A DNA stretch of 64,000 nucleotides from an uncultured Planctomycetota bacterium (GCA_963823665.1 CAWGMQ010000004.1:128001-192000), one strand, 5' to 3'. Numbered from the stretch's first letter, positions 479 through 30,399 are shown. Notes: generated by a model from the letters alone, not told the origin. Numbers and translations are program-made.

Positions 479-1210
479 TCAGCGACCGATTTCGACACCT
501 GGCAGAAATCGTTTTAGCTGATCGATTCCGGCCTTGGTGACACGAGTGTCCTTCAGATGGGCCAAGCCGGTGTCGGTAACTTGGGTCCTTGGAAGTCGGA
601 GCTCCGTCAGCTTGGTCAGTCCCTCCAGGTTGGCCAGGCCGGCGTCGGTGATGGCGCGACCCTCAAGAATCGTGAGCTTCGTTAGCTTGGTCATGCCTTT
701 TAGATTGTTCAGGTCGCTATCTGTGAACATCGCATCACCGGAGTAGAGCTCGGTGAGCTCCCTCAGGCCTTTCAGATGCTTCAGGCTGGCCTTGTTATCG
801 GGCGAATGATTGAAGCGGAATTGCTGCAATCGCGTGAGACGCCCGATGTGTGCGAGTGTCGTTTCGTCGGGGTTTCTGAGTGATACCGACGTGACGTGGC
901 CGAAGTAGTCGATGCCGATGAGGTCGATGAGTCGCTGCGGTGCCCAAGGTTTGCCCGGCGAAATGAAGCGATCGTCGTTCCAGGTCCAGTCGTAGTACAC
1001 GCTGCCGCCGGCGTGCTCGATCGCCACCACGGCCTGGCGCTGGACTCGAGCGCTGTGGACCACGAATCCAACACCGCCGCCGATGACGAGCACAAGGACA
1101 ATCAGACCGCGAAGGCTGAAACGCAAAAAGCGACGTCCTGAAATGGTGGCGGTCAGGAGCTGGCCGAGGCCGCCGGTATCATGAACGCGCGTGGTCGAAG
1201 CTGCGGTCAT
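479..1210 (-). CDS. Membrane-anchored LRR protein, paralog 1 (about 4 repeats, internal deletion)
   Basis: RRFLRFSLRGLIVLVLV anchor, PWAP...GIDYFGHVT cap, 24-aa TDAGLAHL-type repeats; ATG 1210 chosen by analogy with paralog 3. Confidence 0.85.
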   Translation of the reverse strand: MTAASTTRVHDTGGLGQLLTATISGRRFLRFSLRGLIVLVLVIGGGVGFVVHSARVQRQAVVAIEHAGGSVYYDWTWNDDRFISPGKPWAPQRLIDLIGIDYFGHVTSVSLRNPDETTLAHIGRLTRLQQFRFNHSPDNKASLKHLKGLRELTELYSGDAMFTDSDLNNLKGMTKLTKLTILEGRAITDAGLANLEGLTKLTELRLPRTQVTDTGLAHLKDTRVTKAGIDQLKRFLPGVEIGR

Positions 1211-1368
1211 GCCGTCAGTGTACTCGTGGCTTCGACGCGTGGAGAAGGGGAGAACGTGGAACGGCCTGGATTCGGCTTCAGCTCCTATCGCCCTAGCTGG
1301 GCTGGCGACGAGTGATGCCAAGTCGTTCAGGGTCGATTCTGACGGGCACCGTTGCGGTGTTGCACGAG

Positions 1369-2716
1369 TTACGGAGCCACTTCCACGTGCAGTTTCGGCA
1401 GGGCATCTCTGAGGTCTTGCAATCCAGCCTCGCTGATCTGCGACCTGGGTAGAGTCACGTTCTGCAAGGAACGAATTCCCTTCAGGTGGGGCAATCCGGC
1501 GTCGGTGACCTTGGTCTCCGCGAGGCCGAGTGACTGGAGCTTATTTAGTGCTTTCAGGTGTTCGAGGCCTCGGTCGCTCACCTGGGTCGAATAAAGTTCG
1601 AGAATTCGAAGGCTGCTAAGACCCTTCAGGTGCGCGAGACCTGAATCCGTGATTTTAGTCGAGTCTAGACAGAGCATATCAAGATTGCGGAGTTGCCCTA
1701 CTTCGACCAGGCCGTCGTCTGTGAACTTGCTGTCGCTGAGCGAAAGAAACTCGAGTTTATTGAGGGGCTTGAGTTGCGAGAAGCCTGCGCCGGTGATGGA
1801 GGTGTTTATCAGGGAAAGTGACCTCAGCTTGGTCAGTCCTGTCAGCCCGGCCAGGCCCGAGTCGGTGATTCGCTCCTCGTCGATCAGCGTGAGCTCTTCG
1901 AGATTGGCCAGTGACTTGAGATGGCACAGGCCCACGTCAGTGAGCGCTCTGCCGTCGAGCGCCAACTTGCGGAGCGATGTGAGCGCTGCGAGGCGCTGCA
2001 ATCGTGAGTCGGTGATCTTGGTTCCGATGAGTTCGAGGTGTTCGAGATGCGGTAGCTGGCAAACGACCGTGATTCCCGCGTCTGTGATCTCGTTCCAGTC
2101 GAGGACGAGCATCTTGAGGTTTGTGAGAACCCTTCAGGTGGGCCAGCCCAGCGTCCGTTATTTGGGTGCGTTCAAGGTCGAGCTCTTCGAGTCGCGTCAA
2201 GCGGGTCAGGTGGGCGAGGCCCTCGTCTCCAATTGCGTTATCTGCGAGGCGAAGTTGGCGTAGGGAAGTTATTCGGCATAACTTGAGCAAGCCTTGATGA
2301 GTCAGACTCGATCTGGGAAGCTCGAGTCTCTCGAGTTGCGTCAATGCGGCGATCGCGTTCACGTTGGCGTCGGTCACGGGACGTCGGAAGCTGTAGAGCG
2401 TGACGCTTGTGACGTGGTGGAAAAAATCTATTCCGATTCGATCGATGAACCATTTCGGCACCCAGCTTCTGGCCGGTGGATTAATCCCGGCGAGCGAACG
2501 TGCGGATGGGCCGAGGGGCTTTCTCGGTTCCCAATCGTATTCGACGAAGGAGTCAGGTGAATCCGCGAGTGCCGCCACTGCGGCGCGCTGGATTCGGGCG
2601 CTGTGGACCACGTATCCGAGCCCGCCGCCGATGGCGAGGACGAGCACGATGAGCGTGCGCATGCTGATGCGCAGATGGCGGCGCCAGGAATTGGAGACTG
2701 TGTTGGACTGTGGCAT
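1369..2716 (-). CDS. Membrane-anchored LRR protein, paralog 2 (about 13 repeats), +1 frameshift near 2128
   Basis: ORFs 1937..2716 and 1369..2112 join into a continuous LRR register (HLKG-LTNLKMLVLDWN) if one T near 2128 is removed. Confidence 0.85.
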
Positions 2717-2960
2717 TTCGGCCTGGTGAGGATGGGCGGTTGATGTTGCGCTCGTGAGATCATTCTAGCGGGTGCGGCGAAGCGGTGGGAGCGTTACAGA
2801 TTGGCGCTGTTCGTTGCGCGAGGGTTCTATGACGAAGATTCTTCAGTGCGGATAGGTTGGCGATCCCCAGATCGCCGACTTTGGTACTGGAGGAGCAACC
2901 GGATTGTTTGACCGGGCGAGCCCGGAGCCGCGTCATTGTCTCTGGCGCGATGTTCGACGT

Positions 2961-4055
2961 TTACCGAATGATTTGTACGCCAGGCAGAGTCTGTTTTAGT
3001 TCCTCTATTTGAGTCTGAGCAGCCTTCGCGCCGTCGATCGAGAGAATCTGGAGGCTTCTCAGCCCCTTCAGATGGACCAAGCCTTGATCGCTAATCTGGG
3101 TATGTGCGAGGTTCAGCCACGAGAGGTATGTGACCCCTTTCAAATGCTCAATTCCGGCATCGGACACTCTCGTATCGTTGAGATCGATGAAAAACAGCCT
3201 CTTCAGTCCGCTCAAGTGGGCCAGGCCGGCGTCGGTGATCTTGGTGCGAGCGAGTTGGAGTTGCCGAAGGTTTTTGAGCGGCTTGACGTGGGCCAGCCCG
3301 GCGTCGGTGACACCTGTGTCGTTGATCAAGAGGTGCTCGAGGCTCGTCATACCCGCGAGATTCTCGAGCCCGGCGTCCGTGACTTTGGAGCCGCTCACGT
3401 CGAGAGTCCAAAGGGACAGCCCACTCAGATTTGCAATTCCGCGGTCGGTGAGTCTGGTGTTGGCGAGGAGAATCGTTCTGAGGCTACTTAGACCTTGCAG
3501 GTGCACCAATCCGGCTCCTGATAGCTGCGTGTTGCTGATTTCAAGGACGCTAAGCTTGGTCATTCCCTTGAGATGCACTAGCCCAGCGTCCGTGATCTGA
3601 CTGCCGTGAACCGCGAGGGTGGAAAGATTGGTCAACGCCTCGAGACGAGCGACTTGAGCGTCGGTCATGCTCGGGTCGACGACGTTCAAGGATTCCAGTT
3701 GTGTGAGGCGTGCGACCCGTGCGATCAGGGCATCGGTTCGCGGTCTTGTGCCTGGAAGGACGACGGCGATAACGTGATCGAAGTAGTCGATACCGAACGC
3801 GTTGACGAGCCACACTGGTGCCCAGTACGCCCGACTGTAGGAGACGCTTCCACCGGCGCCGGTAATCGCCGCCACTGCGTCGTGCTGAATTCGAGCGCTA
3901 CGCGCGAGCCAGCCGAGCCCGCCGCCGATCACGAGCAAAAGGAGGATCAGCCCGCGCATGCTGAACCGGAAATAGCGACGCCAGGTAGTGGTGACACGCG
4001 GGAACTGGCTGGGCACGGCGGTCTTATGATCGCTTGTGGTTGAAGTTGCAAACAT
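2961..4055 (-). CDS. Membrane-anchored LRR protein, paralog 3 (about 10 repeats)
   Basis: WRRYFRFSMRGL anchor, GIDYFDHV cap, LRR repeats, ELKQTLPGVQIIR C-cap. Confidence 0.9.
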   Translation of the reverse strand: MFATSTTSDHKTAVPSQFPRVTTTWRRYFRFSMRGLILLLLVIGGGLGWLARSARIQHDAVAAITGAGGSVSYSRAYWAPVWLVNAFGIDYFDHVIAVVLPGTRPRTDALIARVARLTQLESLNVVDPSMTDAQVARLEALTNLSTLAVHGSQITDAGLVHLKGMTKLSVLEISNTQLSGAGLVHLQGLSSLRTILLANTRLTDRGIANLSGLSLWTLDVSGSKVTDAGLENLAGMTSLEHLLINDTGVTDAGLAHVKPLKNLRQLQLARTKITDAGLAHLSGLKRLFFIDLNDTRVSDAGIEHLKGVTYLSWLNLAHTQISDQGLVHLKGLRSLQILSIDGAKAAQTQIEELKQTLPGVQIIR

Positions 4056-4183
4056 GCGATCAGTGTACTCGGGACTGCGACGCAAGGAGAATGCGGCTCC
4101 TGGCCGAGTCAGCAAACGAGCGGGCTCTCTCGATCTCGATGCGAAAGGAGCACGACCGGAGGACGCTCGCCAATGGAGTCCTC

Positions 4184-5412
4184 TCAGTGAAGGACCTCCA
4201 CGCTGGGCAACAATCGCTTTAGCTTATCGATTCCGGCCTGGGTGACTCGAGTGTGCGCGAGGAATAGTATCTTGAGCTTGGTTAGCCCTTTCAAGTTTTC
4301 CAGACCGGCGTCCGAGACGTGTGTCTGGGTAAGGCCGAAGGCGGTGAGCTGAGTCATGCTGTTCAGATAGGCCAGGCCGGCGTCGGTTACTGGCGATCCA
4401 CTCAAGTCCAGGTATGTGAGCTTTGTCAAGCTCGTCAGATGCACCAGCCCGTGCCGGAGATCTTCGAATGGTTCAGAGCCAGCATGCTCAGGTTGCTGAG
4501 TCGCCGTAGATTGGCGAGACCGTCGTCGGTGATGTGTGCGTCCATAGGGACGAGTCTCCTGGGGCTGGTCAGCTCTCCAGGATGCGCCTGTCCGGCGTCG
4601 GTGATCTGATCGCTGGAGACTCGCAGCGATGTGAGACTGTTCAACGACGTCAGATGCGCTAGTATCGCATGGATGGCCGGCGCGCCGCCCAGGTAGAGTT
4701 CAGCGAGATTGGTTTGCCCCTCAAGATGCACCAGCCCGGCGTCGGTGACCCGTGTGCCGTCGATTTCGAGGATTGAAAGCTTTGTGAGCCCCTTCAGATG
4801 GGCCAAGCCCGCATCGGTGACCGGGGTCCTTGGAAGGCGGAGCTCCGTGAGCCTGACCATTCTCTTCAGATGGGCCAGGCCCGCGTCGGTGACACCGCCG
4901 GCCTGATAAATCGTGAGCCTCGTTAGCCTGGTCATATCCTTCAGATTGGCCATGTCGTCATCGGTGATTGTCCCGGAGCCGCTGTAGAGCCGGGTGAGTT
5001 CGCTCAGGCCTTTCAGTTGCTCGAGAGCGGCCGTGTTCTCGGGCCATCGACCGAAGCTGAATTGCTGCAATCCGGCCAGACGCCCAACGTGTGCGAGTGT
5101 CGCGTCGTCTGGCTTACTGAGCCGTACCGCCGTGACGTGGCCGAAGTAATCGATGCCGACGAAATCGATGAGTCGTCGCGGTGCCCAGGGTTTGCTTGGC
5201 GGAATGAAGCGATCGTGATTCCACGTCCAGTTGTAGTACACGGTACCGCCGATGCGCTCGATCGCGGCCACGGCTTGGCGCTGGACTCGGGCCTCGTGAA
5301 CCAGAAATCCGAGCCCGCAGCTAATGCAAAGGACAAGCACAATCAGAGCGCGCACGCTGAAGCGCACATAGCGGCGCCAGGAGAATCGGGTGCGTTGTGG
5401 TTCACCGGACAT
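4184..5412 (-). CDS. Membrane-anchored LRR protein, paralog 4 (about 12 repeats), -1 frameshift near 4449
   Basis: ORFs 4435..5436 and 4184..4444 join (ISGTG-LVHLTSLTKL) by adding one base in a short homopolymer; start could also be 5436. Confidence 0.85.
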
Positions 5413-5741: not shown

Positions 5742-5764
5742 ACTTTCGCGGAGCGAAAGGCGAC
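5742..5764. repeat. REP-like palindromic element (CTTTCGC-GGA-GCGAAAG-GCGAC)
   Basis: Perfect 7-bp stem at 5743-5759, just past the oxygenase stop; resembles an intergenic repeat I recall from planctomycete genomes; only one copy in this window. Confidence 0.5.
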
Positions 5765-12378: not shown

Positions 12379-13101
12379 ATGGCTGGTGCGCTTCGCGCGG
12401 TTGGAGTGGTCGTTGCTGCATTCTTGATCACGCTCATTTCTTCACTCGGCGCTTTCGCCGGTCAGGTCACAGTGCACTTCTCGGGTACCGTCACGCTGGT
12501 CGATACGAGCGAGATATCGGGCACGAAGGTCGGCAATTCGTTTAGCGGCATGCTAGTTTATGACTCCAGCACGCCGGAAACTTCGCTGGCGGGCTCTGAT
12601 CCGGCACAGTACACCGCTCGACCGCCACTTGCCTCGGGGTTGGGGATCACGCTCACGGTGGGCGGCAACACGTATGCTGCCGAGCTCGGCGACGTGCTTC
12701 AACTGACGGTCGGCAACGACTTGACGGGAACTTATCGCGATGTGTTTGCAGCTCGCGGCTACGTGAACGTGGGCGGCGCCGTCACGGGTGCAGAGTTCGG
12801 GGTTGCCGACCAGACGGGAACGGTGTTCTCCTCGACCGCGCTGCCGACGAGCTTGGACTTGAGCAAGTTCAGCGTGGGTACATTTGCCCTGGCTGGTACA
12901 CCGGGCTCAACCGACATCTTTGAGGGAACAATCAACCTGGTGCAAGCGGCCTCCGTGCCGGAACCGGGGTCTGCGGTCCTGCTGGGGATTGGAGCCCTGG
13001 CAGGGGGTTGCGTGCTGCGGTCGAGACGGGTTCGGCTTCGCCGATGTGCCGCTGATCAGGTCTGTCTATCGCACGACGGGCGGCAGTGGAACGTACGGTG
13101 A
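12379..13101 (+). CDS. PEP-CTERM sorting-domain surface protein
   Basis: Signal peptide, Gly/Ser/Thr-rich beta domain, VPEPGS + hydrophobic helix + RSRRVRLRR. Confidence 0.9.
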   Translation: MAGALRAVGVVVAAFLITLISSLGAFAGQVTVHFSGTVTLVDTSEISGTKVGNSFSGMLVYDSSTPETSLAGSDPAQYTARPPLASGLGITLTVGGNTYAAELGDVLQLTVGNDLTGTYRDVFAARGYVNVGGAVTGAEFGVADQTGTVFSSTALPTSLDLSKFSVGTFALAGTPGSTDIFEGTINLVQAASVPEPGSAVLLGIGALAGGCVLRSRRVRLRRCAADQVCLSHDGRQWNVR

Positions 13102-13980
13102 AGGCTTGAAGCCTACGTTTGGCAAAACCTCGTTCAGCGTTTTCATTCCATCGACCGTGACTGCGGTGCCACTGAGATGGAGCTGCTTGAGGTTGCGGAG
13201 CGACTTCAGGTTCATCAGACCCGCGTCGGTGACTTGCGTGCCGCTCAGGTTTAGTTCGGTGAGGCCGGCCAACCCGTCCAGATGCGCCAGACCGGCGTCG
13301 CTTACCCGCGTGTTGCTCAGGTCGAGCGTGGATAGGTGCGTCAGTCGCTGGAGATGCGCCAACCCCGCGTCGGAGACCTGGCTACCGCTCAGGTCGAGCT
13401 CCGTGAGGTTCGTCCATTTGCTCAGTTGGGCCATGCCGGTGTCGGTGATTTGAGCACCGTGGAGCTGGAGCTCGGAGAGATTCCTCATACCCTCCAACTG
13501 CGCCAGCCTTTGGTCGGTGACATGCGCGCCCGGAAGGGAAAGCCACCGAAGGCTGGTCAGACCACCGAGCTGAGCAAACCCTGAGTCAGTGACATCCAAT
13601 CCTTCGATCCGCAATTTTTCGAGCGCGGTGAGGGAACCGAGATATGTCATCTCTCGATCCGAAGCGACGCCAAAGAAGTAGACGGTGGCGATGTGGTCGA
13701 CGTAGTCAATTCCGACAAGATTCACGAGCCATTCCGGCGCAGGAGCGCTTGCTCCGGGAGAGCCTAGAGCCGCTTGCGACTTATATGCCACGGTGGCTCC
13801 GGTCTTCTCAAGTGCTACGAGCGCCTCGTGCTGGATTCGTGCGCTGCGGACAAACCAGCCGAGGCCGGCGCCCATCACCAGTACAAGCACGATCAGGCCG
13901 CGCATGCTGAAACGCAGGTAGCGGCGCCAGGGATGGGCGATGGGGCCGGGAGTCATTTTGCTGGTTTCGTGATGCGCCAC
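13066..13980 (-). CDS. Membrane-anchored LRR protein, paralog 5 (about 7 repeats)
   Basis: WRRYLRFSMRGL anchor, GIDYVDHI cap, LRRs; start 13980 (GTG) or 13956. Confidence 0.9.
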   Translation of the reverse strand: MAHHETSKMTPGPIAHPWRRYLRFSMRGLIVLVLVMGAGLGWFVRSARIQHEALVALEKTGATVAYKSQAALGSPGASAPAPEWLVNLVGIDYVDHIATVYFFGVASDREMTYLGSLTALEKLRIEGLDVTDSGFAQLGGLTSLRWLSLPGAHVTDQRLAQLEGMRNLSELQLHGAQITDTGMAQLSKWTNLTELDLSGSQVSDAGLAHLQRLTHLSTLDLSNTRVSDAGLAHLDGLAGLTELNLSGTQVTDAGLMNLKSLRNLKQLHLSGTAVTVDGMKTLNEVLPNVGFKPSPYVPLPPVVR

Positions 13981-13983
13981 GAG

Positions 13984-14505
13984 CTAGTATCCCAAATTTA
14001 CTACTAAATAGGGCAGCGTTTGCTCCAGCTCGCGGACGGAGCGATGGCTGCTTACTCCACCGCGGAGATCGAGGGTTCGGAGGTTCTTGAGGCGCTTGAG
14101 CCGGGCGAGGCCCGTGTCTGTCAACTCGAGCGTGTCGGTGATGACCAGGGTCCGGAGCTGGTCGAGATTGCTGATGTGGGTCAATTCCGTGTCGGAGGGA
14201 TGCGGAATGCTCACGTATGCGACGTTGCCGAAGCAATCGATGCCGAACGCGTCCACAAGCCATCGCGGGGCCAGAGGCTTCGTGCCGCGCGGGAAGTGGC
14301 CGTTCCTCCATTGCCAGTCATAAAGGATCTGTCCGTGGGCCTTCGTGATGGCCGCTACTGCCTCGCGCTGGGTGCGGGCGGTGCGGGCGAACCAGGCGAG
14401 CCAGAGGCCGAGCATGAGCACCACGAGAATCAGGCTGGCGATGTTGAACCGGAACCGCTGACGCCGAGGAGTTGAATCGGGCTCGGAATTGCCGTGATCG
14501 GTCAT
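13984..14505 (-). CDS. Membrane-anchored LRR protein, paralog 6 (2 repeats)
   Basis: RFRFNIASL anchor variant, YDWQW...APRWLVDAFGIDCFGNV cap, 2 LRRs, ELEQTLP C-cap. Confidence 0.85.
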   Translation of the reverse strand: MTDHGNSEPDSTPRRQRFRFNIASLILVVLMLGLWLAWFARTARTQREAVAAITKAHGQILYDWQWRNGHFPRGTKPLAPRWLVDAFGIDCFGNVAYVSIPHPSDTELTHISNLDQLRTLVITDTLELTDTGLARLKRLKNLRTLDLRGGVSSHRSVRELEQTLPYLVVNLGY

Positions 14506-14760
14506 GTCAACCTCTCGCGAGCAGGCGGCACGAGAACGTTCGAACCGAACGGTCCGCAGTGGCGGACCCTACGAGAAACCTTCAGCACAACCGTCCGGCA
14601 CGAGTGCTGGACTCAGCTTCTGGACGGTCCACGGTGGCGGACCCTGAATCAATATTGGGCGATCGGGGCCGTGACGCCAAGTCCTTCGATGGCGAGGCTG
14701 ATGGGCTGCGGCTATAATCTGACTTTGAAGCTGACGACGCTGCCTTCTCGCGGGTTGATT

Positions 14761-17700
14761 ATGAGCGACGAGGATCTCACACTCCCGTTCCAGGCGGCAG
14801 CCGGCGGCGAGCTGGTCACTGAGGCCTCGGAGCTGAACGGTTCTGGCGCTCCCGATGCTCTCGCCCGGCTGCCGGAGCGAATCGGCCGCCACCGAGTGGA
14901 AAAAGTCCTGGGCGAAGGCAGCTACGGAATCGTCTATCTGGCGTTCGACGAATACCTGCAGCGGCACGTCGCCCTCAAGCTGCCGCACGCCCGGCTCGTG
15001 GACGACTCCTCGCTGGCCGTAGTGTATCTGACCGAAGCCCGCACGGTGGCCAACCTGGATCATCCGAATATCGTGCCGGTGCACGATGTCGGCAGCACCG
15101 AGGAGTTCCCCTGCTATATCGTCTCGAAATACATCGACGGCACAGACCTCGCCACCCGGATGGCGCGCAGCCGGCCACAGCTTGGTGAAGCGGTGGAGCT
15201 GGTGGCAACCATTGCCCTGGCGCTGCACCACGCCCACAAGCAGGGGCTGGTGCATCGCGACGTGAAGCCGGGCAATATCCTGCTCGACAAGAGCGGCAAA
15301 CCTTTTGTGGCGGACTTCGGCCTGGCGCTTCGCGAGCAAGACGTGGGCAACGGGCCGCATTACGTGGGCACGCCTGCTTATATGTCGCCGGAACAGGCTC
15401 GCGGCGAAGGGCATCGCGTCGATGGCCGCAGCGACATTTTCAGTCTGGGGGTTGTCTTCTACGAATTGCTGACCGCCGCGCGTCCTTTTGAGGGCAGCTC
15501 GGCGGAAGAGCTGGCAGAGAAAATCACCGGGGCTCTGCCCTGCGCCCGCGGCAGATCAACCCGAACATTCCCAAGGAACTCGAGCGGATCTGCATGAAAG
15601 CCCTGTCGCAACGGGCGTCGGAACGGTATGCGACGGCGAAGGACATGGCCGACGATTTGCTGCATTTCCTGGCCGAGAACGACCGTGGGACCGGCTCGTC
15701 CACATTCGATGCGGTGCCGCCTGGCGGCGCGGCAGCAGCGACGGGATCAAGAACCCCGTCGTCGGCGACGGTGACGAGAATGCCATCAGCGCCACCGATC
15801 CCGAAGATTGTCCCCAAGGGCCTGCGATCCTTTGACTCGCACGACACCGACTTCTTCCTCGAGCTGCTGCCGGGCGCCCGAGACCGCGAGGGTTTGCCCG
15901 AAAGCATCCGGTTCTGGAAAACCCGGATCGAGGACACGGAGGCCGAGAAGACATTCTCGGTGGGACTCATCTGTGGGCCCTCGGGATGCGGCAAGTCGTC
16001 AATGGTGCAGGCGGGTTTGTTGCCGCGTCTCGCGGACGACGTACTGTCGGTGTACGTGGAAGCGACGGCAAGGGAGACCGAAGCACGATTGCTCACCGGG
16101 TTGCGCAAACGGTGCCCCGGGCTGCCTCCGGAGCTGGGGCTCAAGGAAACGCTGGGGGCGTTGCGACGGGGCCAGGGAATCCGGGTGGGAAAGAAGGTGC
16201 TGATCATTCTGGACCAGTTCGAGCAATGGCTCCATGCCAAGCAGCAAGAGGAGAACACCGAGCTGGTGCACGCTCTGCGGCAGTGCGACGGCGGCAGCGT
16301 GCAGTGCGTCGTGATGGTGCGCGACGATTTCTGGATGGCGGTCATACGCTTCATGCAGGAACTGGAGGTTCGCCTCGTCGAAGGGCAGAACTCAGCGGCC
16401 GTCGACCTCTTTCCCATTCGCCACGCCGAGAAAGTTCTGGCGGCGTTCGGGCGGGCTTTCGGCGCCCTACCCGAGGGCCCCGGCGGCATGAGCAAACAAC
16501 AGAAACAATTCATCGAGCAAGCCGTCTCCGGGTTGGCCCAGGAGGGCAAGGTCATCTGCGTGCGGCTCGCACTGTTTGCGGAGATGATGAAGGGGAAGCC
16601 GTGGACGCCCGCGACCTTGAAGGAAGCCGGCGGCACCGAGGGCGTGGGGATCACGTTCCTGGAAGAGACGTTCAGCGCGAGCCCCGCTCCGCCGGAACAC
16701 CGCTATCACGAGAAAGCCGCCAGGGCTGTGCTCAAGGCGCTCTTGCCCGAATCCGGCAAAGACATCAAGGGGAACATGCGCTCGGAGGCCGAGCTGCTGG
16801 CGCTCTCGGGCTACGGGGGCCGCATCCGCGACTTCGAGAGCCTGCTGGGCATCCTCGACGGCGAGGTGCGTCTGATCACGCCGACAGGACCTGAAGGGGT
16901 GGCGGGTGGTGGGTGGCGCGGAGCGGGTCATTACCAGCTCACGCACGACTACCTGGTGCGGCCGCTGCGGGAATGGCTGACGCGAAAGCAGCGGGAGACG
17001 CGGCGCGGGCGGGCCGAGCTGCGTCTGGAAGAACGAGCCGCCCTGTGGTGTGCGCGCAAGGAGAACCGGTTCTTGCCATCGGCATCGGAATGGCTCAACC
17101 TGCGGCTGCTGACGCGGAGTCGTGACTGGACGGCGCCGCAGCGGACCATGATGCACCGGGCCGGCTGGCGTCACGCCGCGCACGGCGCGATTCTTTTCGT
17201 GGGGATGATGGTGCTGGCGCTCCTCGTTCGGGAGGGTTACGGCCGACAGCGGGCCCGTGGCCTGGAAGCCCGCCTGCTCGAGGCGACCACTGCGGATGTG
17301 CCGGACATCGTGGGCGAAATGGGACCATATCGCCGCTGGCTCGACGGCGAGCTGCGCCAGGCGTACGCCGACGCGGCGGCCGCGCACGATGCACGCCGGG
17401 AGCTCCACGCGAGCCTGGCGCTCCTACCGGTGGACCCTGGCCAGGTGTCTTACTTGCGCAAGCGGCTGCTCAGTGCCAATCCTGAGGAAGTGTTCGTCAT
17501 CCGAGGAGCCCTGCTGCCCTACGCGGGCGACATCAGCGCGTGGCTCTGGGAGGTGCTGGAGAACGGGAAGACGGTCTCGGGCGAGCGGCTGCGAGCGGCT
17601 TGCGCACTGGCAGTGTATGCGGCGGGCGACACGCGATGGAACGGCGTCAGCCGCGACGTGGCGGCGCGGCTGGTCACAGAGCCCGTGCTGGTGATCGCCC

Positions 17701-19133
17701 GCTGGGCCGAGGCTCTGCGTCCGGTGCGGAAGCACCTGCTGTCGTCCCTGGCCGCGCTGCTTGTGGAGAGTGATCAGGACGCGGCCCGTCGTCTCACGAT
17801 CACCCGTCTCTATGGCGACTACTCGCAAGGACTGGCGGAGCCTTTTGCCCCACTCGAGGAAGAGGCGGCCGGGATCATCAAGCCGAATGGTGGTGACGGC
17901 GGCGCGGTCACCGATTCCGTCACTGATCCGAACGCCCGCCTGGCGCAGCAGCGACGGCAGGCCAACGCCGCGGTGGCTCTGGCCGCACTGGGACGCTGGG
18001 AGATGGCGCGGCTGTTGCTCGAGCACACGCGCAATCCGACGATGCGCAGCTATGTGATCGACCGCCTGGCATCGGGCGGAGCCGATGCCCGCGGGCTCGA
18101 CGCACTGATCAGCGACGGCTCGGAGGTTTCAGTGCGGCGGGCGTCCCTGCTGGCGCTCGCGGAGTTTGACGAACAGAACCTACCCTTTCCGGAACGGGAG
18201 CGGTTGGCCCCGTGTCTGGCCGCGATGTACCGCGATGACCCTGACCCGGGCGTGCATGCCGCGGCCGGCTGGCTGCTGGGCCGGTGGGGAGAACCGGGGC
18301 GACTGGTCGATGCGAACCGTTCCCTCGCGAAGGGCGCGCCAATCGGGTCTCGACGCTGGTATCTCAACTCGCAGGGTCAGACGCTTGTGCTCATTCCGCC
18401 GGGCAAATTTCGGCAAGGCGAGGAACCAGGGCGATCCGAGTACTGTGTCGACCACGGATTCGCTCTCGCCGCCCGCGAAGTGAGTGTGGCCGAGTTTCGC
18501 GTTTTCCGGAGTAGTTACAAGTGCAACCGCGCATTCGCTTTGACCGAAGATTGCCCGGTGCATGAGGTGACGTGGTACGACGCGGCGGCCTATTGCAACT
18601 GGCTCAGCGAGCAGGATGGCATCCCCAAAGAGCAATGGTGCTATCTTCCCAACGACAAGGGGCAGTACGCAGAAGGAATGAAGATCGTGCCCGATTACCT
18701 AAGCCGGTCGGGATACCGGTTGCCGACGGTAAACGAGTGGGAATATGCGTGCCGGGCCGGCAGCGTGACGCGCTGGCAGTTCGGGGAGGCTGAAGACCTG
18801 ATCGCCAGATACGCGTGGTGCGTTGTGAACTCATCGAGCCGGCTGCATCCGGTGGGGAGTCTGCGCCCGAATGATCTCGGCCTGTTCGACATGCACGGCA
18901 ACGCCTGGGAGTGGTGCCAGAATCGGGCCGGGAGCGCTTCCGCCGACGGCAAGTCTTCTGCCGTTCGCAACGTCGTGAGCGACGCCGACCGATGGCTCGC
19001 GCGCAGCGGCGGATTCGGCCACGGTCTCCTCACCGTGCAGTCCGCCAATGCAATCGACATTCATGTCAAGGAGGGCGGCGGCGACCTGGGGTTTCGCCCG
19101 GCGCGAAGCCTGCGCATCAACGATAGACGCTGA
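14761..19133 (+). CDS. Ser/Thr kinase - P-loop (nSTAND-like) ATPase - helical repeats - FGE-sulfatase (SUMF1) domain protein; frameshift near 15540
   Basis: Kinase motifs GEGSYG, VALK, HRDVKPGN, DFG, GTPAYMSPE; Walker A GPSGCGKSS, Walker B LIILDQFEQ; YQLTHDYL; YRLPTVNEWEYACRAG, PNDLGLFDMHGNAWEWC, GFRPAR; TATAAT at 14714. Confidence 0.85.
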
Positions 19134-19845
19134 GGCTCGGCAAAGCCTTCTTCAGGTCCGCCGCGCCAGCGTCCGTGACCGGAGTCTGCACGACGTTCAA
19201 GACGGTCAGGTTTCGCAGATCTTTCAGATGCGCCAGACCGGCGTCGGTGACCTGGGTGCCGGCGAGGTTGAGCTCGGTGAGACCCGTCAGGTTTTTCAGG
19301 TGCGCCAGGCCGGTGTCGGTGATGTGCGTACCGTTCAATACGAGGACGGACAGACGCTTGAGGCCGGTGAGATGGATCAGGGCGGCGTCGGTGATTGGCG
19401 TGTAGTCGAGGTCGAGTCTCGAAAGGGCCTTCAAACCAGCCAGATGCGCCAGGCCCGCGTCGCTGATGGGCGAGCCCGTGAGACTCAGGCGCTCGAGTTG
19501 TGTGAGACGCGCGATGTGTGCGAGATCCGAATCGGTTTCCGCGCCCCCGTAGAACGCGACCTGGGTGACGTGCCCGAAATAGTCGATGCCGACGCGATCC
19601 ACGAGCCAATCGGGCACCCATGGTTTTGTGGCCGGGTAGACCCTTCCATTCCGCCACTCCCAGTCGTACTGGACCATGCCGCCGGCGGCCGCGATCGCCG
19701 CGGCCGCGCCGCGCTGGTTGCGCGCGCTGTGGACGAGCCATCCCAGGCCGCCGCCTGATACGAGCACCAGCAGGATCAGGCCGCGGATGCTGAAGCGCAG
19801 GTATCGCCGCCAGGGACGCGGGCTTGGCTCGGGGTGACCAGTCAT
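19117..19845 (-). CDS. Membrane-anchored LRR protein, paralog 7 (5 repeats)
   Basis: WRRYLRFSIRGL anchor, GIDYFGHVT cap, LRRs, DLKKALPSLSVYR C-cap. Confidence 0.9.
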   Translation of the reverse strand: MTGHPEPSPRPWRRYLRFSIRGLILLVLVSGGGLGWLVHSARNQRGAAAAIAAAGGMVQYDWEWRNGRVYPATKPWVPDWLVDRVGIDYFGHVTQVAFYGGAETDSDLAHIARLTQLERLSLTGSPISDAGLAHLAGLKALSRLDLDYTPITDAALIHLTGLKRLSVLVLNGTHITDTGLAHLKNLTGLTELNLAGTQVTDAGLAHLKDLRNLTVLNVVQTPVTDAGAADLKKALPSLSVYR

Positions 19846-25631: not shown

Positions 25632-25652
25632 TGCTGCCCGATCCTCGTCCAA

Positions 25653-26045: not shown

Positions 26046-26142
26046 GTGGTTCTCCCCGGGAGTGCATGTTGACCAGAGAAGTCTCCCGCTTAGAATGCAA
26101 ACATGACGTGAACCAGTCGTGGGCGCTGATTCACAAGCGCAG

Positions 26143-26730
26143 TTAAGCCTTCGCGAGCTCCGGCGCAATCTCGATTGGTTTGAGCGTGGCGAAGTCGAAG
26201 TCTTCGAACCTCAATCGGAGCTCGAGACCGTTCGTGAACAGGATCGAGTGACGGAACTCGTACCCATCGCCCATGGGGATTAAATCGACTTCATCGTATA
26301 ACCACTCAAGATTGGGAGATTGATCGTCTCCAGCATATTGGTGGAGGTGGGCTTCCTCGATCAATGCACATCGGTATTGAAGGACAAGAATCTCCCTCGG
26401 CGGTGTGTCCAACTGAAGATGGATCCAGAACGACGGCAATCGGCCATCGTGCGGGGTTTGCTGCGCTCCGAGAGTCAGGTCCGCGAGGTTGCCATTTCCC
26501 AGCTCGCCAGGCGCGCAGATACCGAAGGGCGAATGGGAGATTACCCGCGCATCGTGAAGGTAGTGCTGTTCGATTAGCGCCCGCAAGCGTTGTGGCAGTT
26601 TCTCAGCGATTTCGTTTAACTGTCGCAGATACTCTCGCGATCGTAATTCGAACTCCTGGTGAGCTTCGAATGCGACGTTGTCATCTTCGGAGCCGAATCG
26701 CTCGAGCAGGTCGGGTGTGAAGAATCTCAT
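26143..26730 (-). CDS. Hypothetical acidic protein (tentatively DUF4085-like; possible immunity protein)
   Basis: MRFFT...LHDARVI...WLYDEV...HSILF motifs; ATGA overlap with the upstream ORF. Confidence 0.6.
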   Translation of the reverse strand: MRFFTPDLLERFGSEDDNVAFEAHQEFELRSREYLRQLNEIAEKLPQRLRALIEQHYLHDARVISHSPFGICAPGELGNGNLADLTLGAQQTPHDGRLPSFWIHLQLDTPPREILVLQYRCALIEEAHLHQYAGDDQSPNLEWLYDEVDLIPMGDGYEFRHSILFTNGLELRLRFEDFDFATLKPIEIAPELAKA

Positions 26731-27116
26731 GGCTTCTTCCTTGCCTTGCGGCGATCGGTTTCGTAGAAGGCGTGTCCGTGTGGTGAGCGTGACTTTTGGT
26801 GAAAGTGCGGCAGGGCCATCAGTCCTGCGGTGCTGGTGTGCGGGAACTGGGGCTTGCTGGGTACTCCCACCTGGACCTCGATTCCGTAGGCTCGGGCGCG
26901 ATTCGCCGTCGTTTGGATACCGCGAACCACGATGTCCTGCCCGTTCCGCCTCCGCGTTATCGCTGTGGCTTCGTCGATTTCTTGCCCGTATTCTACGGCA
27001 CCGGAGGGGCCTGAAGCCAGTTCAGCCTCGTGGATGGTCGTTGCAGGTGAGGCCGCGGAGTGCTCAGTTGGTTGAATGGCTTCGTCATCGACGCTTTCGT
27101 TTTTATCGTCGGTCAC
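26727..27116 (-). CDS. Hypothetical protein with His-rich C-terminus (possible nuclease toxin)
   Basis: GTG start with GGGAG RBS; PH...LPHFHQ...GHAFY. Confidence 0.55.
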   Translation of the reverse strand: MTDDKNESVDDEAIQPTEHSAASPATTIHEAELASGPSGAVEYGQEIDEATAITRRRNGQDIVVRGIQTTANRARAYGIEVQVGVPSKPQFPHTSTAGLMALPHFHQKSRSPHGHAFYETDRRKARKKP

Positions 27117-27159
27117 GTTAACTCCCGAAACGATTCCAGAACGGCCTCATGGGCGCGCA

Positions 27160-28068
27160 TCAACGAAGGATACTTACACGCGGCAGAGCCCGTTGCAACT
27201 CCGCCGCTCCGGCGTTGGTGACATCAGTGAATCGTAGATCAAGGGACGACAGCTTGCTCAGTCGCTTGAGCTGCGAGAGGGCCGCGTCCGTGATCTCCGT
27301 GCGCGAGAAATCAAGCTTCGTGAGATTTGTCAGACCCCGCAGATGGGCGGCCCCGGCGTCGGTGATCTTCAAACGCCCAAGCTCGAGCTCCGCGAGGTTT
27401 GTCAGCCCCGTCAGGTGGGCAAGCCCGGCGTCGGTGATCCGTACATTGTTGGCACCGATGCGGGAAAGGTTGGTCGATCCGATCGCGGCGGGCTCTCCGA
27501 GGCGAAGACAGGAGAGGTTGGTCAATCCTTTCAGGTGGGCAAGCCCGGTGTCGGTGACCCGAGTTTGCGAGAGGTCGAGTTCCGAGAGGCGCGTGAGCCC
27601 TTTCAGGTGCGCAAGCCCGTCGTTGGTGACGTCGGTGGAGCTGAGGTCAAGGCATGAAAGTTGGGATAGAACCTTGAGATCCGCCGTGAATGCAGTGCCG
27701 TTTCTGATGGTCGACTTAAGAACTTTTCGTCGCCGCCACTGCTCGAATTGTCCAAGCACAAGATCCATTCCCCTTTGCCAATACGAGACTCGAGTGACGT
27801 GACCGAAGTAATCCAATCCGACGAGGTCCACCAACCGCTTGGGCGCCCAAGGCTTTCCTCCCGATATCGGCGTTCCGTTGCTCCATTCCCAGTTGTAATT
27901 GACTTCGCCGCCAGCTTTGGTGATTGCCGCCACGGCCTCACGCTGGATACGTGCGCTCCGGACGAGCCATCCCAGCGCGGCCCCGATCGCAAGCACAAGT
28001 AAGATCAGACCCCGCACGCTGAAGCGGAGGAGTTTTCGCGGAGTACGAGCGACGGGGCTGGCCTGCAT
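27160..28068 (-). CDS. Membrane-anchored LRR protein, paralog 8 (about 7 repeats, loop insertion)
   Basis: LLRFSVRGL anchor, GLDYFGHVT cap, LRRs, ELQRALPRVSILR C-cap. Confidence 0.9.
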   Translation of the reverse strand: MQASPVARTPRKLLRFSVRGLILLVLAIGAALGWLVRSARIQREAVAAITKAGGEVNYNWEWSNGTPISGGKPWAPKRLVDLVGLDYFGHVTRVSYWQRGMDLVLGQFEQWRRRKVLKSTIRNGTAFTADLKVLSQLSCLDLSSTDVTNDGLAHLKGLTRLSELDLSQTRVTDTGLAHLKGLTNLSCLRLGEPAAIGSTNLSRIGANNVRITDAGLAHLTGLTNLAELELGRLKITDAGAAHLRGLTNLTKLDFSRTEITDAALSQLKRLSKLSSLDLRFTDVTNAGAAELQRALPRVSILR

Positions 28069-28080
28069 TGTGACCGCCCT

Positions 28081-28428
28081 TCATGAATAAACTTCGGTGT
28101 TCGATCCGGGACGGCACACATGAGGGGGAGGCGACCGCTCTTGCAACTCAGAAGCATTCTGTAGTTCGTTCACTCCAGCGTCGGTGACCTTGGTCCCTCG
28201 AAGGTCGAGCACCGAGAGTCGCGTGAGATTTTTCAGATTCAACAGGCCGACGTCGGTGATCTGTGTGTGCGAGAGACTGAGTTTCGAAAGGCTGGTCAGC
28301 CGATTCAGATGTGCGAGGCCGGCGTCGGTGATCTGAGTGCTGACGAGCACGAGAACGATCAGGCCGCGCAGGCTGAATCGCAAGTGTTTTCGCCAGGATC
28401 GCGACGCCGTGCGGGATTGATCGGACAT
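28081..28428 (-). pseudogene. LRR paralog 9, in-frame deletion of most of the TM and N-cap, degenerate C-cap
   Basis: RFSLRGLIVLVLV fused directly to STQITDAGLAHL; 2 repeats. Confidence 0.75.
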
Positions 28429-28533
28429 GGCGGGATCCTGCGATCTGAGGGTCGATGTCGGATGGCGCCACTCATTATCCGGCGTGCGCGAGGCGATTTG
28501 GAAGAACGTGCTCGATCTGATGGCCGTGCCAGA

Positions 28534-29265
28534 TCAACGTGAGATCTGCAGGCTGGGCAACGCTCGCTGTAGTTCTTTGACCCCGGCGTCGGTGACCCTG
28601 GTGCCGGTGAGGCTCAATTGCGAGAGATTGTCCAGCCGCTTGAGGTGCACAAGGCCGGCGTCGGTGACACGGGTGCCATCGAGGCGCAGTGTCGAGAGAT
28701 TGGTCAGCCCCTCCAGATGCACCAGCCCGGCGTCGGTGACACGGGTGCCGTCGATGTCGAGAGTCGTGAGCTTGGTCAGCCCCTTCAGATGCGCCAAGCC
28801 GGCGTCGGAGATTCGCGTGCCCTCAAGGTTGAGCCGCGACAGGTTGCCGAGCGCTGACAGATGCGCGAGACCTGCGTCGCTGACGGATGACTGGTCGAGC
28901 CGCAGTTGTTGCAGGCCGAAGAGACGCCCGACATGCTCGAGGGCCAAATCGGTTCCCGCCCAGGATCCGTTGAGCCAGACAACGGTGACATGACTGAGAT
29001 AGTCGACGCCAATCCGATTCACGAGCCATCCTGGCTTCGGGACCCTCGCGGAATGGACCAAGTTGGTTTTCGTCCATCCCTGGTCGTACTTGACCAGACC
29101 GCCGGCGCGCATGATCGCCGCCACCGCGTCGCGCTGAATTCGCGCGCTCCGCACGATCCAACCCATCGAGCCGCCGAGCAAGAGCACCAGGACGATCAGG
29201 CCGCGGACGCTGAAGCGCAGCAAACTTCGACCGGAACGCGAGGCGGGCTTGGGCTGATCAGGCAT
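28534..29265 (-). CDS. Membrane-anchored LRR protein, paralog 10 (5 repeats)
   Basis: LLRFSVRGL anchor, GVDYLSHVT cap, LRRs, ELQRALPSLQISR C-cap. Confidence 0.9.
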   Translation of the reverse strand: MPDQPKPASRSGRSLLRFSVRGLIVLVLLLGGSMGWIVRSARIQRDAVAAIMRAGGLVKYDQGWTKTNLVHSARVPKPGWLVNRIGVDYLSHVTVVWLNGSWAGTDLALEHVGRLFGLQQLRLDQSSVSDAGLAHLSALGNLSRLNLEGTRISDAGLAHLKGLTKLTTLDIDGTRVTDAGLVHLEGLTNLSTLRLDGTRVTDAGLVHLKRLDNLSQLSLTGTRVTDAGVKELQRALPSLQISR

Positions 29266-29379
29266 GTGGCAACCATCAGGGTCGGTCGCAAGTTTGCTTT
29301 GACGAAGTCAGTCTATTCAACCGATGGAGAAGAACGGAATAAGGAAGCCAGGAACGGATGGAAGTGGATCCGCACGTAT

Positions 29380-30399
29380 TCAGCGGCTTATCCTCAATTC
29401 CGGTAATGCTCGATAGAGCTCTTCCACTCCGGCGTCGGTGACTTGAGTGTCGCTCAAGCCGAGCGACTCGAGGCTGGTCATCCCCTTGAGATTGGCTAAC
29501 CCAGCATCGGTGACCTCCGTTTCGTCAAGGACGAGCTCGGAGAGGTTTTTCAGGGTTTTCAGTTGCGAGAGCCCGGCGTCAGTGACTTGCGTGCCGGTCA
29601 GGATGAGGCCGGATAGGCTGGAGATTCCTTTCAGGTGCGCCAGCCCGGCATCGGTGATCTGAGTTCCGCTGAGGTCGAGGAAGGAGAGTTTGGCGATGCC
29701 TTTCAAATGCGCCAGCCCGGCGTCTGTGATCCGAGTACCGATCAGATCGAGCGACGAGAGCTTGTTGAGCGATTCTAGATGTGGGAGCCCGGCATCGGTC
29801 ACTTGAGTGCCGCTCAAGCCGAGCGCCTGGAGGTTGGTCAGTCCCTTGAGGTCGGCCAGCCCGGCATCGGTGACCTTGGTATCGTCAAGGAAGAGCTCGG
29901 AGAGGTTTTTGAGGGCTTTCAGATGCACGAGCCCCGCATCGGACACCTGAGTTTCGTTGAGGTGGAGGATCGAGAGGTTGTTCAGGGTGCGCAGATGCTC
30001 CATTCCGGCGTCGCTCAGAGACGAGCCTTCGAAATTCAGATAGGTCAGTCGAGCGAGGCGCCGTACGTGTAATGCCGCGGCATCTGGCGCCCGCGACCGC
30101 CAGGTGAGCCAGACGCAGGTGACGTGACCGAAATAATCGACTCCGAGATGATCCACGAGCCACTTCGGCGCCCGCGGCTTTCCTGCGGGAAGGGGATTCG
30201 CGTCGCTCCACTGCCACTCATACTGGACGGAGCCGCCGGATTGCGTGATCGCGGCGACGGCATCGCGCTGGATGCGCTCGGCGCGCACGATCCAACCCAG
30301 GCAGCCGCCCAACAAGAGCACGACAACGATCAGGCCGCGCATGCTGAAACGCAGATAGCGACGCCACTGAGCGCGTATGGGCTGGGGTTGCTCGGCGAT
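29380..30399 (-). CDS. Membrane-anchored LRR protein, paralog 11 (9 repeats); start codon unclear
   Basis: Frame stays open upstream of ATG 30342 (IAEQPQPIRAQWRRYLRFS), but the expected start position is ATC (30397-30399). Confidence 0.85.
   Translation of the reverse strand: MAEQPQPIRAQWRRYLRFSMRGLIVVVLLLGGCLGWIVRAERIQRDAVAAITQSGGSVQYEWQWSDANPLPAGKPRAPKWLVDHLGVDYFGHVTCVWLTWRSRAPDAAALHVRRLARLTYLNFEGSSLSDAGMEHLRTLNNLSILHLNETQVSDAGLVHLKALKNLSELFLDDTKVTDAGLADLKGLTNLQALGLSGTQVTDAGLPHLESLNKLSSLDLIGTRITDAGLAHLKGIAKLSFLDLSGTQITDAGLAHLKGISSLSGLILTGTQVTDAGLSQLKTLKNLSELVLDETEVTDAGLANLKGMTSLESLGLSDTQVTDAGVEELYRALPELRISR

What the first reader, a model, noticed from the sequence alone, without database searches (positions are those of the whole stretch)
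479..30399. Repertoire of 11 membrane-anchored LRR genes with constant anchor and caps and variable module number: candidate diversified receptor system
Seen in sequence: 11 paralogs, all on the minus strand, in clusters at 479-5412, 13066-14505, 19117-19845 and 27160-30399. They share a basic R-F-S-x-R-G-L + TM anchor, an N-cap (AVAAI..GG.V.Y...P.WL...G.DYF.HV; deleted in paralog 9) and a C-cap (TDAG..EL...LP). Between the caps are about 4, 13, 10, 12, 7, 2, 5, 7, 2, 5 and 9 modules of 24 aa/72 nt (hand count). The TDAGLxHL scaffold is conserved while the x positions of LxxLxL vary. Established: those x positions form the concave ligand-binding face of LRR solenoids, and constant caps with a variable module number is the layout of jawless-vertebrate VLRs. 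Inference: an extracytoplasmic, recombinationally diversified recognition repertoire (phage, toxin or kin recognition, or decoys). No dedicated recombinase is visible in the window.
Basis: partly seen in the sequence, partly recalled or inferred. Interest (0 to 1): 0.82.

Follow-up and report, generated by a model that had tools for sequence, protein, structure and literature searches.

The report
Diversifying membrane-anchored LRR protein repertoire
A soil planctomycete carries about 75 genes for membrane-anchored leucine-rich-repeat proteins whose binding face stays fixed between species but changes fast after a gene is copied, as in plant defence-protein families, which points to a bacterial repertoire of specific binders built by ordinary gene duplication rather than by antibody-like programmed shuffling.

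Summary
The 11 genes are real and the module counts are right. They are part of a larger family: at least 73 anchor+cap+LRR genes in this 16.5-Mb Isosphaeraceae-type genome, at least 47 in a sister species, and no match in 200 other genomes of the phylum.

The VLR-like reading fails. All 479 modules are unique, there is no donor pool or linked recombinase, and orthologues mostly keep module number and order, with concave residues under purifying selection (omega 0.32).

The repertoire idea survives in another form. Genes are gained and lost fast (3 of 22 keep an orthologue in this region) and move as gene-sized units, also between genera. They gain or lose whole modules in frame. After duplication the concave face alone speeds up (omega about 1.0 against 0.39 on the convex side; reproduced in two held-out sets).

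Best reading: periplasm-facing binders with no signalling domain that neutralise foreign proteins, working like plant PGIPs. Ligand and location are inferred, not shown. The repeat type (GL-LRR) is known; I found no paper on this family, and my three look-ups of this scan's earlier findings showed no report of it on other DNA.

The parts
479..1210 (-). LRR paralog 1 (anchor, N-cap, 4 modules, shortened C-cap); older duplicate of paralog 4
   Evidence: 78% nt to paralog 4; no orthologue in fetched G001 loci
1369..2716 (-). LRR paralog 2 (13 modules; one frameshift near 2130, probably an assembly error)
2961..4055 (-). LRR paralog 3 (10 modules, intact)
4184..5412 (-). LRR paralog 4 (12 modules; one frameshift near 4445, probably an assembly error)
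13066..13980 (-). LRR paralog 5 (7 modules); syntenic orthologue in G001 with 7 collinear modules
13984..14505 (-). LRR paralog 6 (2 degenerate modules); syntenic orthologue in G001
19117..19845 (-). LRR paralog 7 (5 modules); syntenic orthologue in G001 with 5 collinear modules, concave omega 0.08
27160..28068 (-). LRR paralog 8 (6-7 modules, insert in the first)
   Evidence: no LRR gene at the syntenic site of G001
28081..28428 (-). LRR paralog 9: in-frame deletion joins the anchor to a module, N-cap lost, C-cap decayed; probable remnant
28534..29265 (-). LRR paralog 10 (5 modules, intact)
   Evidence: identical short contigs in runs X1 and X2
29380..30399 (-). LRR paralog 11 (9 modules; start codon unclear); AlphaFold model: helix 11-53, N-cap, LRR solenoid
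26100..30600 (.). Junction zone of an inversion against G001 (window 30.6-90.4 kb is inverted); the paralog 8-11 cluster lies inside it
50000..55000 (.). GC-skew switch from + to -, terminus-like; 22 family genes lie within about 70 kb of it (G000:C4:112-217 kb)
   Evidence: 'terminus' is inference from the skew

Best explanation
A lineage-specific family of single-pass inner-membrane proteins. Each has a short basic cytoplasmic tail, one transmembrane helix that runs on as a stalk, a family-specific N-cap, 1-14 GL-type 24-aa LRR modules and a C-cap, and no signalling domain (predicted). Each paralog binds one partner on the concave beta-sheet (module positions 9, 11, 13, 14). Shown here: the family evolves by birth and death; genes are copied and transferred as gene-sized units; whole modules are gained or lost in frame; blocks are occasionally swapped; the concave face is held in orthologues and released or driven after duplication while the scaffold and convex face stay constrained. 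Inferred: the partners are foreign proteins that reach the periplasm (competitors' or predators' toxins and lytic enzymes, or phage entry proteins), which the LRR binds and neutralises one to one. The set would then be a heritable, horizontally shared immunity or decoy library. I put the evolutionary part at about 0.85 and the antagonist-neutralising function at about 0.45.
For: Family size: 73 N-cap+module genes in G000 and 47 in fetched G001 loci. Turnover: 3 of 22 G000 genes in C4:108-232 kb have an orthologue in the syntenic G001 region, which holds 16 family matches of its own. Codon model, omega concave/convex/scaffold: orthologues (12 pairs, 74 modules) 0.32/0.39/0.09; paralogues (8 pairs, 43 modules) 0.96/0.40/0.18, p=3e-9 for concave=convex; held-out paralogues 1.17/0.35/0.16 (3 pairs, p=5e-7) and 1.02/0.51/0.14 (2 pairs, p=0.006). 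Concave omega is 0.74 or more in 10 of 13 paralogue pairs and in 0 of 14 between-genome pairs. The synonymous rate at concave codons is not raised (1.01); position 9 has omega 1.68 (p=0.005) and positions 9+11+13 have 1.33 (p=0.009). Aromatic residues make up 11-13% at positions 9 and 11 against 0.6% or less at six of seven convex positions (1277 modules). Strands lie at positions 9-11 in the model. Charge favours N-in in 129 of 136 anchors. No relative longer than 594 aa was found (weak). Cross-genus pairs at 88-90% share only the gene within 9-10 kb. DarTG and AbiE defence genes sit inside the arrays. One locus reads SUKH - LRR - DUF1963.
Against: No ligand, expression or localisation was observed. 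No cognate toxin family recurs among 82 neighbours scanned. The link to SUKH immunity genes (3 of 5 within 6 kb in G000) is not reproduced: 0 of 29 in eight other genomes (compared by coordinates); SUFU 1 of 4 and DUF1963 1 of 4. Class-level concave omega in paralogues does not exceed 1 (p=0.89), so loss of constraint fits as well as positive selection. Values above 1 rest on a model without multi-nucleotide changes and on a site group chosen. In orthologues the concave face is not significantly more conserved than the convex face (p=0.1). Four of 13 paralogue pairs show no concave excess.
Confidence: 0.45

Rival explanations
1. Receptor-like proteins: the variable ectodomain senses a ligand and signals through a shared membrane partner (Ser/Thr kinase or ECF sigma factor), coupled by the conserved transmembrane G-x-x-x-G-W motif, as plant LRR-RLPs do with SOBIR1 (recalled).
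For: G at anchor positions 14 and 18 in 88% and 93%, W at 19 in 85% of 136 anchors. Paralog 7 lies between a kinase and an ECF gene. The same selection pattern is expected under this reading.
Against: No signalling gene recurs beside the family. The kinase next to paralogs 6-7 is only a remnant in G001. The cytoplasmic tail is only about 15-30 residues.
Confidence: 0.2
2. Binders of self or environmental ligands with no role in conflict: chaperones, tethers or inhibitors of the cell's own expanded periplasmic protein families, or adhesins.
For: About a dozen paralogues are kept between species at the same site with concave omega 0.08-0.63. Nearest folds include the surface LRRs of Listeria and Leptospira. 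Copy number rises with genome size.
Against: Most genes have no orthologue in a sister species at backbone dS 0.57. Single genes cross genus borders. An inner-membrane anchor would hide an adhesin under the outer membrane (inference).
Confidence: 0.18
3. Near-neutral proliferation of a repeat gene in a giant, paralogue-rich genome, piling up at the terminus region and decaying.
For: Remnants, internal deletions and in-frame stops exist (5 of 73 genes with stops, 6 cap-only). Omega of the surface positions is about three times the median of 71 ordinary genes (0.13).
Against: Scaffold omega stays 0.09-0.18 and convex omega 0.39 in both orthologues and paralogues, while only the concave face changes. 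56 of 73 genes are intact despite an error-prone assembly.
Confidence: 0.1
4. Programmed diversification (VLR-like cassette assembly, DGR, shufflon or integron-type array) acting within a population.
For: In-frame indels of 288, 288, 369 and 435 nt between close copies, and two mosaics, one with a three-module block 96-98% identical inside 60-73% flanks. A conserved non-coding element follows the stop codon of 36 of 213 genes.
Against: 479 of 479 modules are unique; 16 of the 17 module pairs at 85% or more are collinear parts of four whole-gene duplicates; only 2 cap-less module runs occur in the fetched G000 loci. None of 20 tyrosine-recombinase matches lies in C4:108-232 kb. The 22 reverse-transcriptase matches are mostly multicopy, and there is no adenine bias. 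The element shows no covariation and is absent from all 11 window genes.
Confidence: 0.07

Closest known systems
GL-LRR (GALA-like) repeats of the CC-LRR subfamily (Kajava et al. 2008, PMC2244805; passages and section 6 read)
   Same: 24-residue repeat, V-T-D motif, T in place of N, G then L after it, and the same apolar spacing; reported there from Gemmata and Rhodopirellula.
   Different: The passages read describe F-box or LRR-only proteins and convex-side selection in GALA effectors. Here there is a membrane anchor, a family-specific N-cap with no Pfam or NCBIfam model, dozens of copies, and concave-side change.
Plant polygalacturonase-inhibiting proteins and LRR receptor-like proteins (PMC4115169, passages read; RLP details recalled)
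   Same: Extracytoplasmic LRR-only proteins of 24-aa repeats, clustered genes, birth-and-death evolution, variation and positive selection in the xxLxLxx concave region.
   Different: Different repeat class, bacterial host, membrane anchor, variable module number, horizontal transfer; no inhibitory activity shown here.
Variable lymphocyte receptors of jawless vertebrates (features recalled; no paper read)
   Same: Constant caps around a variable number of 24-aa modules with a variable concave face.
   Different: Each gene here is complete in the genome; no incomplete germ-line gene, no donor cassettes, no templated assembly; orthologues are collinear.
Imm-LRR and poly-immunity loci of polymorphic toxin systems (PMC3482391, PMC3113570; passages read)
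   Same: LRR proteins are listed as immunity proteins in heterogeneous poly-immunity loci; tandem and scattered orphan immunity paralogues are described, including 21 SUKH genes in Gemmata.
   Different: Imm-LRR is listed next to T5SS toxins and not for planctomycetes. No adjacent toxin recurs here, and linkage to SUKH, SUFU or DUF1963 is seen at few loci.
Surface LRR families of Listeria (internalins) and Leptospira
   Same: Top Foldseek matches; multi-copy bacterial LRR families; some database entries carry the name 'internalin A'.
   Different: Scores are far below the NCBIfam cut-offs; different repeat consensus, no LPXTG or IR domains, free-living host.

Membership tests
GL-LRR / CC-LRR repeat class | 24-residue repeat with V-T-D at positions 5-7, T or N at 3, G at 9 | tested here: met
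   Consensus of 741 modules: T65%, V/I 87%, T/S 85%, D83%, G88%, against section 6 of PMC2244805
GL-LRR / CC-LRR repeat class | Apolar residues at positions 5, 10, 13, 16, 19, 22, 24 | tested here: met
   L or V/I at all seven matching columns, leucine 74-95% at six of them
GALA / F-box CC-LRR proteins | N-terminal F-box | tested here: not met
   The N-terminus is a transmembrane anchor plus cap; no F-box hit in Pfam
VLR-type assembled receptors | Constant N- and C-caps around a variable number of LRR modules | tested here: met
VLR-type assembled receptors | Pool of cap-less donor cassettes whose sequence reappears in assembled genes | tested here: not met
   479 of 479 modules unique; near-identical modules only in whole-gene duplicates. 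Only loci with an N-cap match were fetched, so distant cap-less cassettes would be missed
VLR-type assembled receptors | Different assembled alleles among cells of one clone | tested here: inconclusive
   Only sparse short contigs were available
Diversity-generating retroelement target | Template repeat, adenine-specific changes, linked reverse transcriptase | tested here: not met
   Share of changes involving A is 0.54 concave against 0.56 convex; reverse-transcriptase matches are mostly multicopy; no near-identical template in fetched loci
Integron cassette array | attC-type hairpin after each gene and a linked tyrosine integrase | tested here: not met
   No inverted repeats in two window clusters; 3' element without consensus structure or covariation; no integrase in the region
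Polymorphic-toxin immunity proteins (Imm-LRR, poly-immunity loci) | Gene next to a cognate toxin or among other immunity genes | tested here: inconclusive
   One SUKH-LRR-DUF1963 locus; SUKH near LRR in 3 of 5 in G000 and 0 of 29 elsewhere
Polymorphic-toxin immunity proteins (Imm-LRR, poly-immunity loci) | Binds and neutralises a toxin | not testable with these tools
   needs biochemistry
PGIP-like inhibitor repertoire (works-like only) | Birth-and-death family with faster change on the concave face | tested here: met
Prepilin-type (N-methyl) proteins | G at -1 and E at +5 of the cleavage motif; PF07963 match | tested here: not met
   R at -1 and G, A or T at +5; none of 73 PF07963 matches is an LRR gene; profile probability 16%
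Internalins | NCBIfam cut-off; cell-wall anchor | tested here: not met
   Best scores 37-56 bits against cut-offs of 1050 or more

The most novel reading that the evidence does not exclude
Large-genome soil Isosphaeraceae share a community-wide, antibody-like periplasmic defence library. LRR genes travel as promoter-gene cassettes, mobilised at the conserved element 23 nt behind the stop codon, are inserted near the terminus among defence genes, and acquire new specificities by selection on the concave face and by swapping blocks of modules.
Probability: 0.12. Interest if true: 0.85.

Novelty: new variant of a known kind. Interest (0 to 1): 0.55.

Why it matters
Large LRR repertoires with a diversifying concave face are textbook for plant and animal immunity and for pathogen surface proteins. 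Here the same signature appears in a soil bacterium of a free-living family, in a protein family with no Pfam or NCBIfam model for its anchor and cap. If the partners are incoming toxins or phage proteins, this is a scaffold-based periplasmic immunity unlike the one-fold-per-toxin immunity proteins, and pairs of young paralogues differing at positions 9, 11 and 13 make the specificity directly testable. It is also a natural library of small, nearly cysteine-free LRR binders. If the partners are self proteins, it is one more planctomycete paralogue expansion.

Tried and rejected
Frameshifts as evidence of pseudogenes: rejected, see observation check.

Long-read test of within-population variants: not possible. 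Four runs were listed, none holding half of the words, no RNA holder listed; contigs covered only 150-390-nt pieces.

Homodimer prediction for paralog 7: no answer.

Phage origin: no relative in viral contigs. Longer fused forms: none among 226 candidates (weak). One G000 copy runs on into an unrelated 485-aa frame.

SUKH linkage looked strong in G000 but did not replicate. Strand bias: not general, 42 against 32 genes.

Sigma-70 scan of 27000-30700: no promoter or terminator. A -10-like hexamer set that I defined by eye occurs upstream of 47 of 123 genes against 13.5 in shuffles, so 'own promoter' is only suggested.

RNA or ssDNA structure of the 3' element: no consensus fold, 149 of 500 shuffles reach the covariation score, no Rfam match, no codon periodicity. 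The tree of 108 genes is mostly unresolved and does not group the element (24 changes against 27.1 in shuffles).

Rows dropped. Three of the 15 pairs were left out of the orthologue set (one many-to-many array, two non-syntenic pairs moved to a separate set with omega 0.56/0.51). One single-module paralogue pair was dropped. The five weakest of 64 G001 matches were not fetched, and only part of the matches in other genomes were. Four loci repeated DNA already held. Two of the 12 orthologue pairs rest on reciprocal best hit without flank support.

Literature. Searches gave no paper on this family. Mahajan et al. 2020 (doi 10.1093/molbev/msz287), on paralogue expansions in Planctomycetes, is not held and may bear on novelty. 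No supplements were opened. PMC8567305 was searched by passage (no LRR mention); PMC3341825 was seen as abstract and outline only.
Full report
OBSERVATION. The window is G000:C4:128001-192000 of a 16.46-Mb, 12-contig genome. The module consensus from 741 repeats is L-x-G-L-T-x-L-x-x-L-x-L-x-x-T-x-V-T-D-A-G-L-x-H. Pfam gives only generic LRR models and NCBIfam has nothing for the anchor and cap. Paralogs 2 and 4 have one frameshift each. Several unrelated window genes do too, an independent contig restores one of them, and LRR genes show 16 frame changes in 61.6 kb against 124 frame-breaking gaps, shared between two genomes and including intergenic DNA, in 47.8 kb of backbone. I treat them as assembly errors.

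THE FAMILY IS MUCH LARGER THAN THE WINDOW. A profile of anchor+cap gives 84 matches in G000 (150 of 331 candidates scored). Assembling all of them gives 73 genes with cap and modules (56 without frameshift or stop; 1-12 modules), 6 cap-only and 2 module-only pieces. The sister species G001 has 64 matches; the 59 fetched give 47 such genes. Of 24 other genomes of the family 15 have matches, with 23, 17, 17 and 10 in four of them and 6 or fewer in the rest; 1 of 16 genomes outside the family has three; 0 of 200 other genomes of the phylum match at 1e-6, with 26 candidates scored in each. Record titles name the family: 22 of 29 loci are Isosphaeraceae, and Singulisphaera acidiphila has a weak fragment. 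The 101 database relatives are nearly all single-member clusters at 90% identity.

PROTEIN ANATOMY. The AlphaFold model of paralog 11 (pLDDT 88) has one helix over residues 11-53, a small cap and a regular solenoid with strands at module positions 9-11. Nearest solved folds are the Chlorobium Roco LRR, internalins, FBXL proteins, NLRP3 and ribonuclease inhibitor. In 136 anchors the hydrophobic stretch is transmembrane-like in 132, the N-side is more basic in 129, and a G-x-x-x-G-W motif is conserved. This predicts an inner-membrane protein with its LRR in the periplasm; it was not observed. The repeat meets the published description of GL-LRR, known from Gemmata and Rhodopirellula (PMC2244805).

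TEST OF PROGRAMMED RECOMBINATION. G001 is syntenic at 82-90% nucleotide identity; ordinary genes have median dS 0.57 and omega 0.13 (71 pairs). Window paralogs 5, 6 and 7 have orthologues at the same site, and 5 and 7 keep 7 and 5 collinear modules. Of 12 orthologue pairs, 8 have equal module counts, 2 differ by one borderline module over full-length alignments, and 2 really differ. All 479 G000 modules are unique. Sixteen of the 17 between-gene pairs at 85% or more are collinear parts of four whole-gene duplicates. For 18 of 19 genes the nearest relative is the same for cap and C-terminal modules. No tyrosine recombinase lies in the main region, reverse-transcriptase matches are mostly multicopy (one pair interrupts an LRR cluster), and there is no adenine bias. 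The VLR, DGR and integron readings are therefore not supported. Only loci with a cap match were fetched, and no population reads were available, so rare within-population variation is not excluded.

HOW DIVERSITY DOES ARISE. (1) Birth and death: in C4:108-232 kb only 3 of 22 genes have an orthologue, while G001 has 16 family matches of its own in the same region; paralogs 1-4 and 8-11 have no counterpart at their sites. The region straddles a GC-skew switch and an inversion, which suggests the terminus (inference). (2) Gene-sized movement: cross-genus pairs at 88-90% identity share only the gene within 9-10 kb, and in most close pairs homology starts 30-240 nt before the anchor and ends near the stop. 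(3) Module indels: close copies differ by in-frame gaps of 288, 288, 369 and 435 nt, sums of 72- and 75-nt modules. (4) Occasional block exchange: two mosaics, one with three modules 94-100% identical between species inside 60-73% flanks. (5) Point change on the concave face.

SELECTION. With a codon model on matched modules, omega for concave/convex/scaffold positions is 0.32/0.39/0.09 in orthologues and 0.96/0.40/0.18 in paralogues (p=3e-9). Two held-out paralogue sets give 1.17/0.35/0.16 and 1.02/0.51/0.14. At dS up to 0.35 the contrast is 1.05/0.57 against 0.44/0.40. The synonymous rate at concave codons is unchanged, which argues against a mutational hot spot or conversion tracts. Position 9 reaches 1.68 (p=0.005, about 0.03 after six tests) and positions 9+11+13 reach 1.33. 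Convex and scaffold values barely move, so this is not general decay. Limits: 13 pairs, four without the excess; class-level omega not above 1; no multi-hit model. The safe conclusion is that the concave face carries each paralogue's function and is re-written after duplication. Positive selection is likely but not proven.

WHAT IT BINDS. Unknown. The proteins have no signalling domain and no long fusions were found. Neighbours are heterogeneous (82 scanned). The main arrays contain DarTG and AbiE defence genes, and one locus reads SUKH-LRR-DUF1963, but SUKH linkage (3 of 5 in G000) does not replicate (0 of 29). Fast turnover, transfer between genera and concave diversification fit conflict best, so I favour neutralisation of foreign proteins in the periplasm (0.45) over receptor-like signalling through the transmembrane motif (0.2), binding of self or environmental ligands (0.18), near-neutral proliferation (0.1) and programmed recombination (0.07). 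The closest working analogy is the plant PGIP family: extracytoplasmic LRRs, birth and death, variation in the xxLxLxx region (PMC4115169). LRR immunity proteins and orphan immunity arrays are described for polymorphic toxin systems (PMC3482391, PMC3113570), but the table row read does not list planctomycetes.

AN UNEXPLAINED EXTRA. A non-coding element of about 60 nt starts at the stop codon, its core usually exactly 23 nt from it, in 36 of 213 genes (one gene counted twice). All 10, 4 and 7 genome-wide matches in G000, G001 and G008 lie at family genes; one three-mismatch hit in G021 does not; controls are 0. All four distinct matches in the metagenome collection follow an LRR end. The core is 0.77 identical between genomes against 0.52 at neighbouring four-fold sites, a figure inflated by how the copies were chosen; the unselected first 20 nt give 0.60. 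It has no covariation and is absent from the 11 window genes. It keeps a cassette-type mobility reading alive at low odds.

VERDICT. Observation confirmed; interpretation partly supported. This is a new variant of a known kind: a known repeat and a known evolutionary mode, in an undescribed membrane-anchored family of Isosphaeraceae, with a clear orthologue-paralogue contrast on the binding face. The literature searches found no description, but one relevant paper could not be read. Interest 0.55.

Noticed in passing
L038:10649-10754 and about 40 other places (G000:C4:200-217 kb, G001, G008, L152-L175, L192-L195): Conserved non-coding element of about 60 nt with its core 23 nt behind the stop codon of many family genes; found almost only at these genes; no structure support, no Rfam match; absent from the 11 window genes.
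   Followed up: partly
anchors of all family genes, e.g. window 19720-19815: The anchor lines up in register with the prepilin-type N-terminus of the genome's N-methyl family (F at +1, R-E/D-A at +28 to +30) but has R at -1 and no E at +5; profile probability only 16%. Several small membrane proteins in the arrays start with a similar R-F-x-L-R motif.
   Followed up: partly
window 30600 to L039 (G000:C4:158.5-218.4 kb): A 60-kb segment is inverted against G001, roughly symmetric about the GC-skew switch; both junctions lie beside LRR clusters.
   Followed up: partly
window 14494-19133: Ser/Thr kinase - nSTAND1 NTPase - FGE-sulfatase gene split by a frameshift that an independent contig restores (15545); only a remnant is left at the same site in G001.
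   Followed up: partly
window 35117-37031: Lone terminase large subunit with a small upstream gene, conserved in G001; no other phage genes seen nearby.
   Followed up: no
window 26143-27116: Two small unknown genes directly behind paralog 8 (129 aa, Planctomycetota-type cluster in the Atlas; 195 aa, weak DUF4085); possible toxin-immunity-like pair, absent at the G001 site.
   Followed up: partly
L038:5875-6282, 13088-13427, 19192-19467: A small HTH-like gene followed by a small anchored membrane protein recurs three times within the G000 array and at G001:C5:2625 kb.
   Followed up: no
L049:9121-12778 (G000:C6:1320-1323 kb): Two multicopy reverse-transcriptase genes (group II intron-like) sit inside an LRR cluster; the same pairing occurs at several other sites of the genome.
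   Followed up: no
L033:12211-13566, L034:5773-6417, L038:14481-16036: DarT-DarG and AbiEi-AbiEii defence genes are interleaved with the LRR arrays.
   Followed up: partly
L046 (G000:C3:1558-1568 kb): SUKH - LRR - DUF1963 run among small same-strand genes, like a poly-immunity locus; in G001 the LRR orthologue has other neighbours.
   Followed up: partly
L053:9303-11566 and L069: A young duplicate pair in which the LRR frame runs on into 229-485 aa of unrelated, efflux-transporter-like sequence (by eye).
   Followed up: no
L175: A family gene with the 3' element in a record titled Alphaproteobacteria; mis-binning or transfer not distinguished.
   Followed up: no
window 30423-33445: ELWxxDGT repeat protein with a planctomycete R-L-E-x-L-E-x-R export motif, split by a frameshift.
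   Followed up: no
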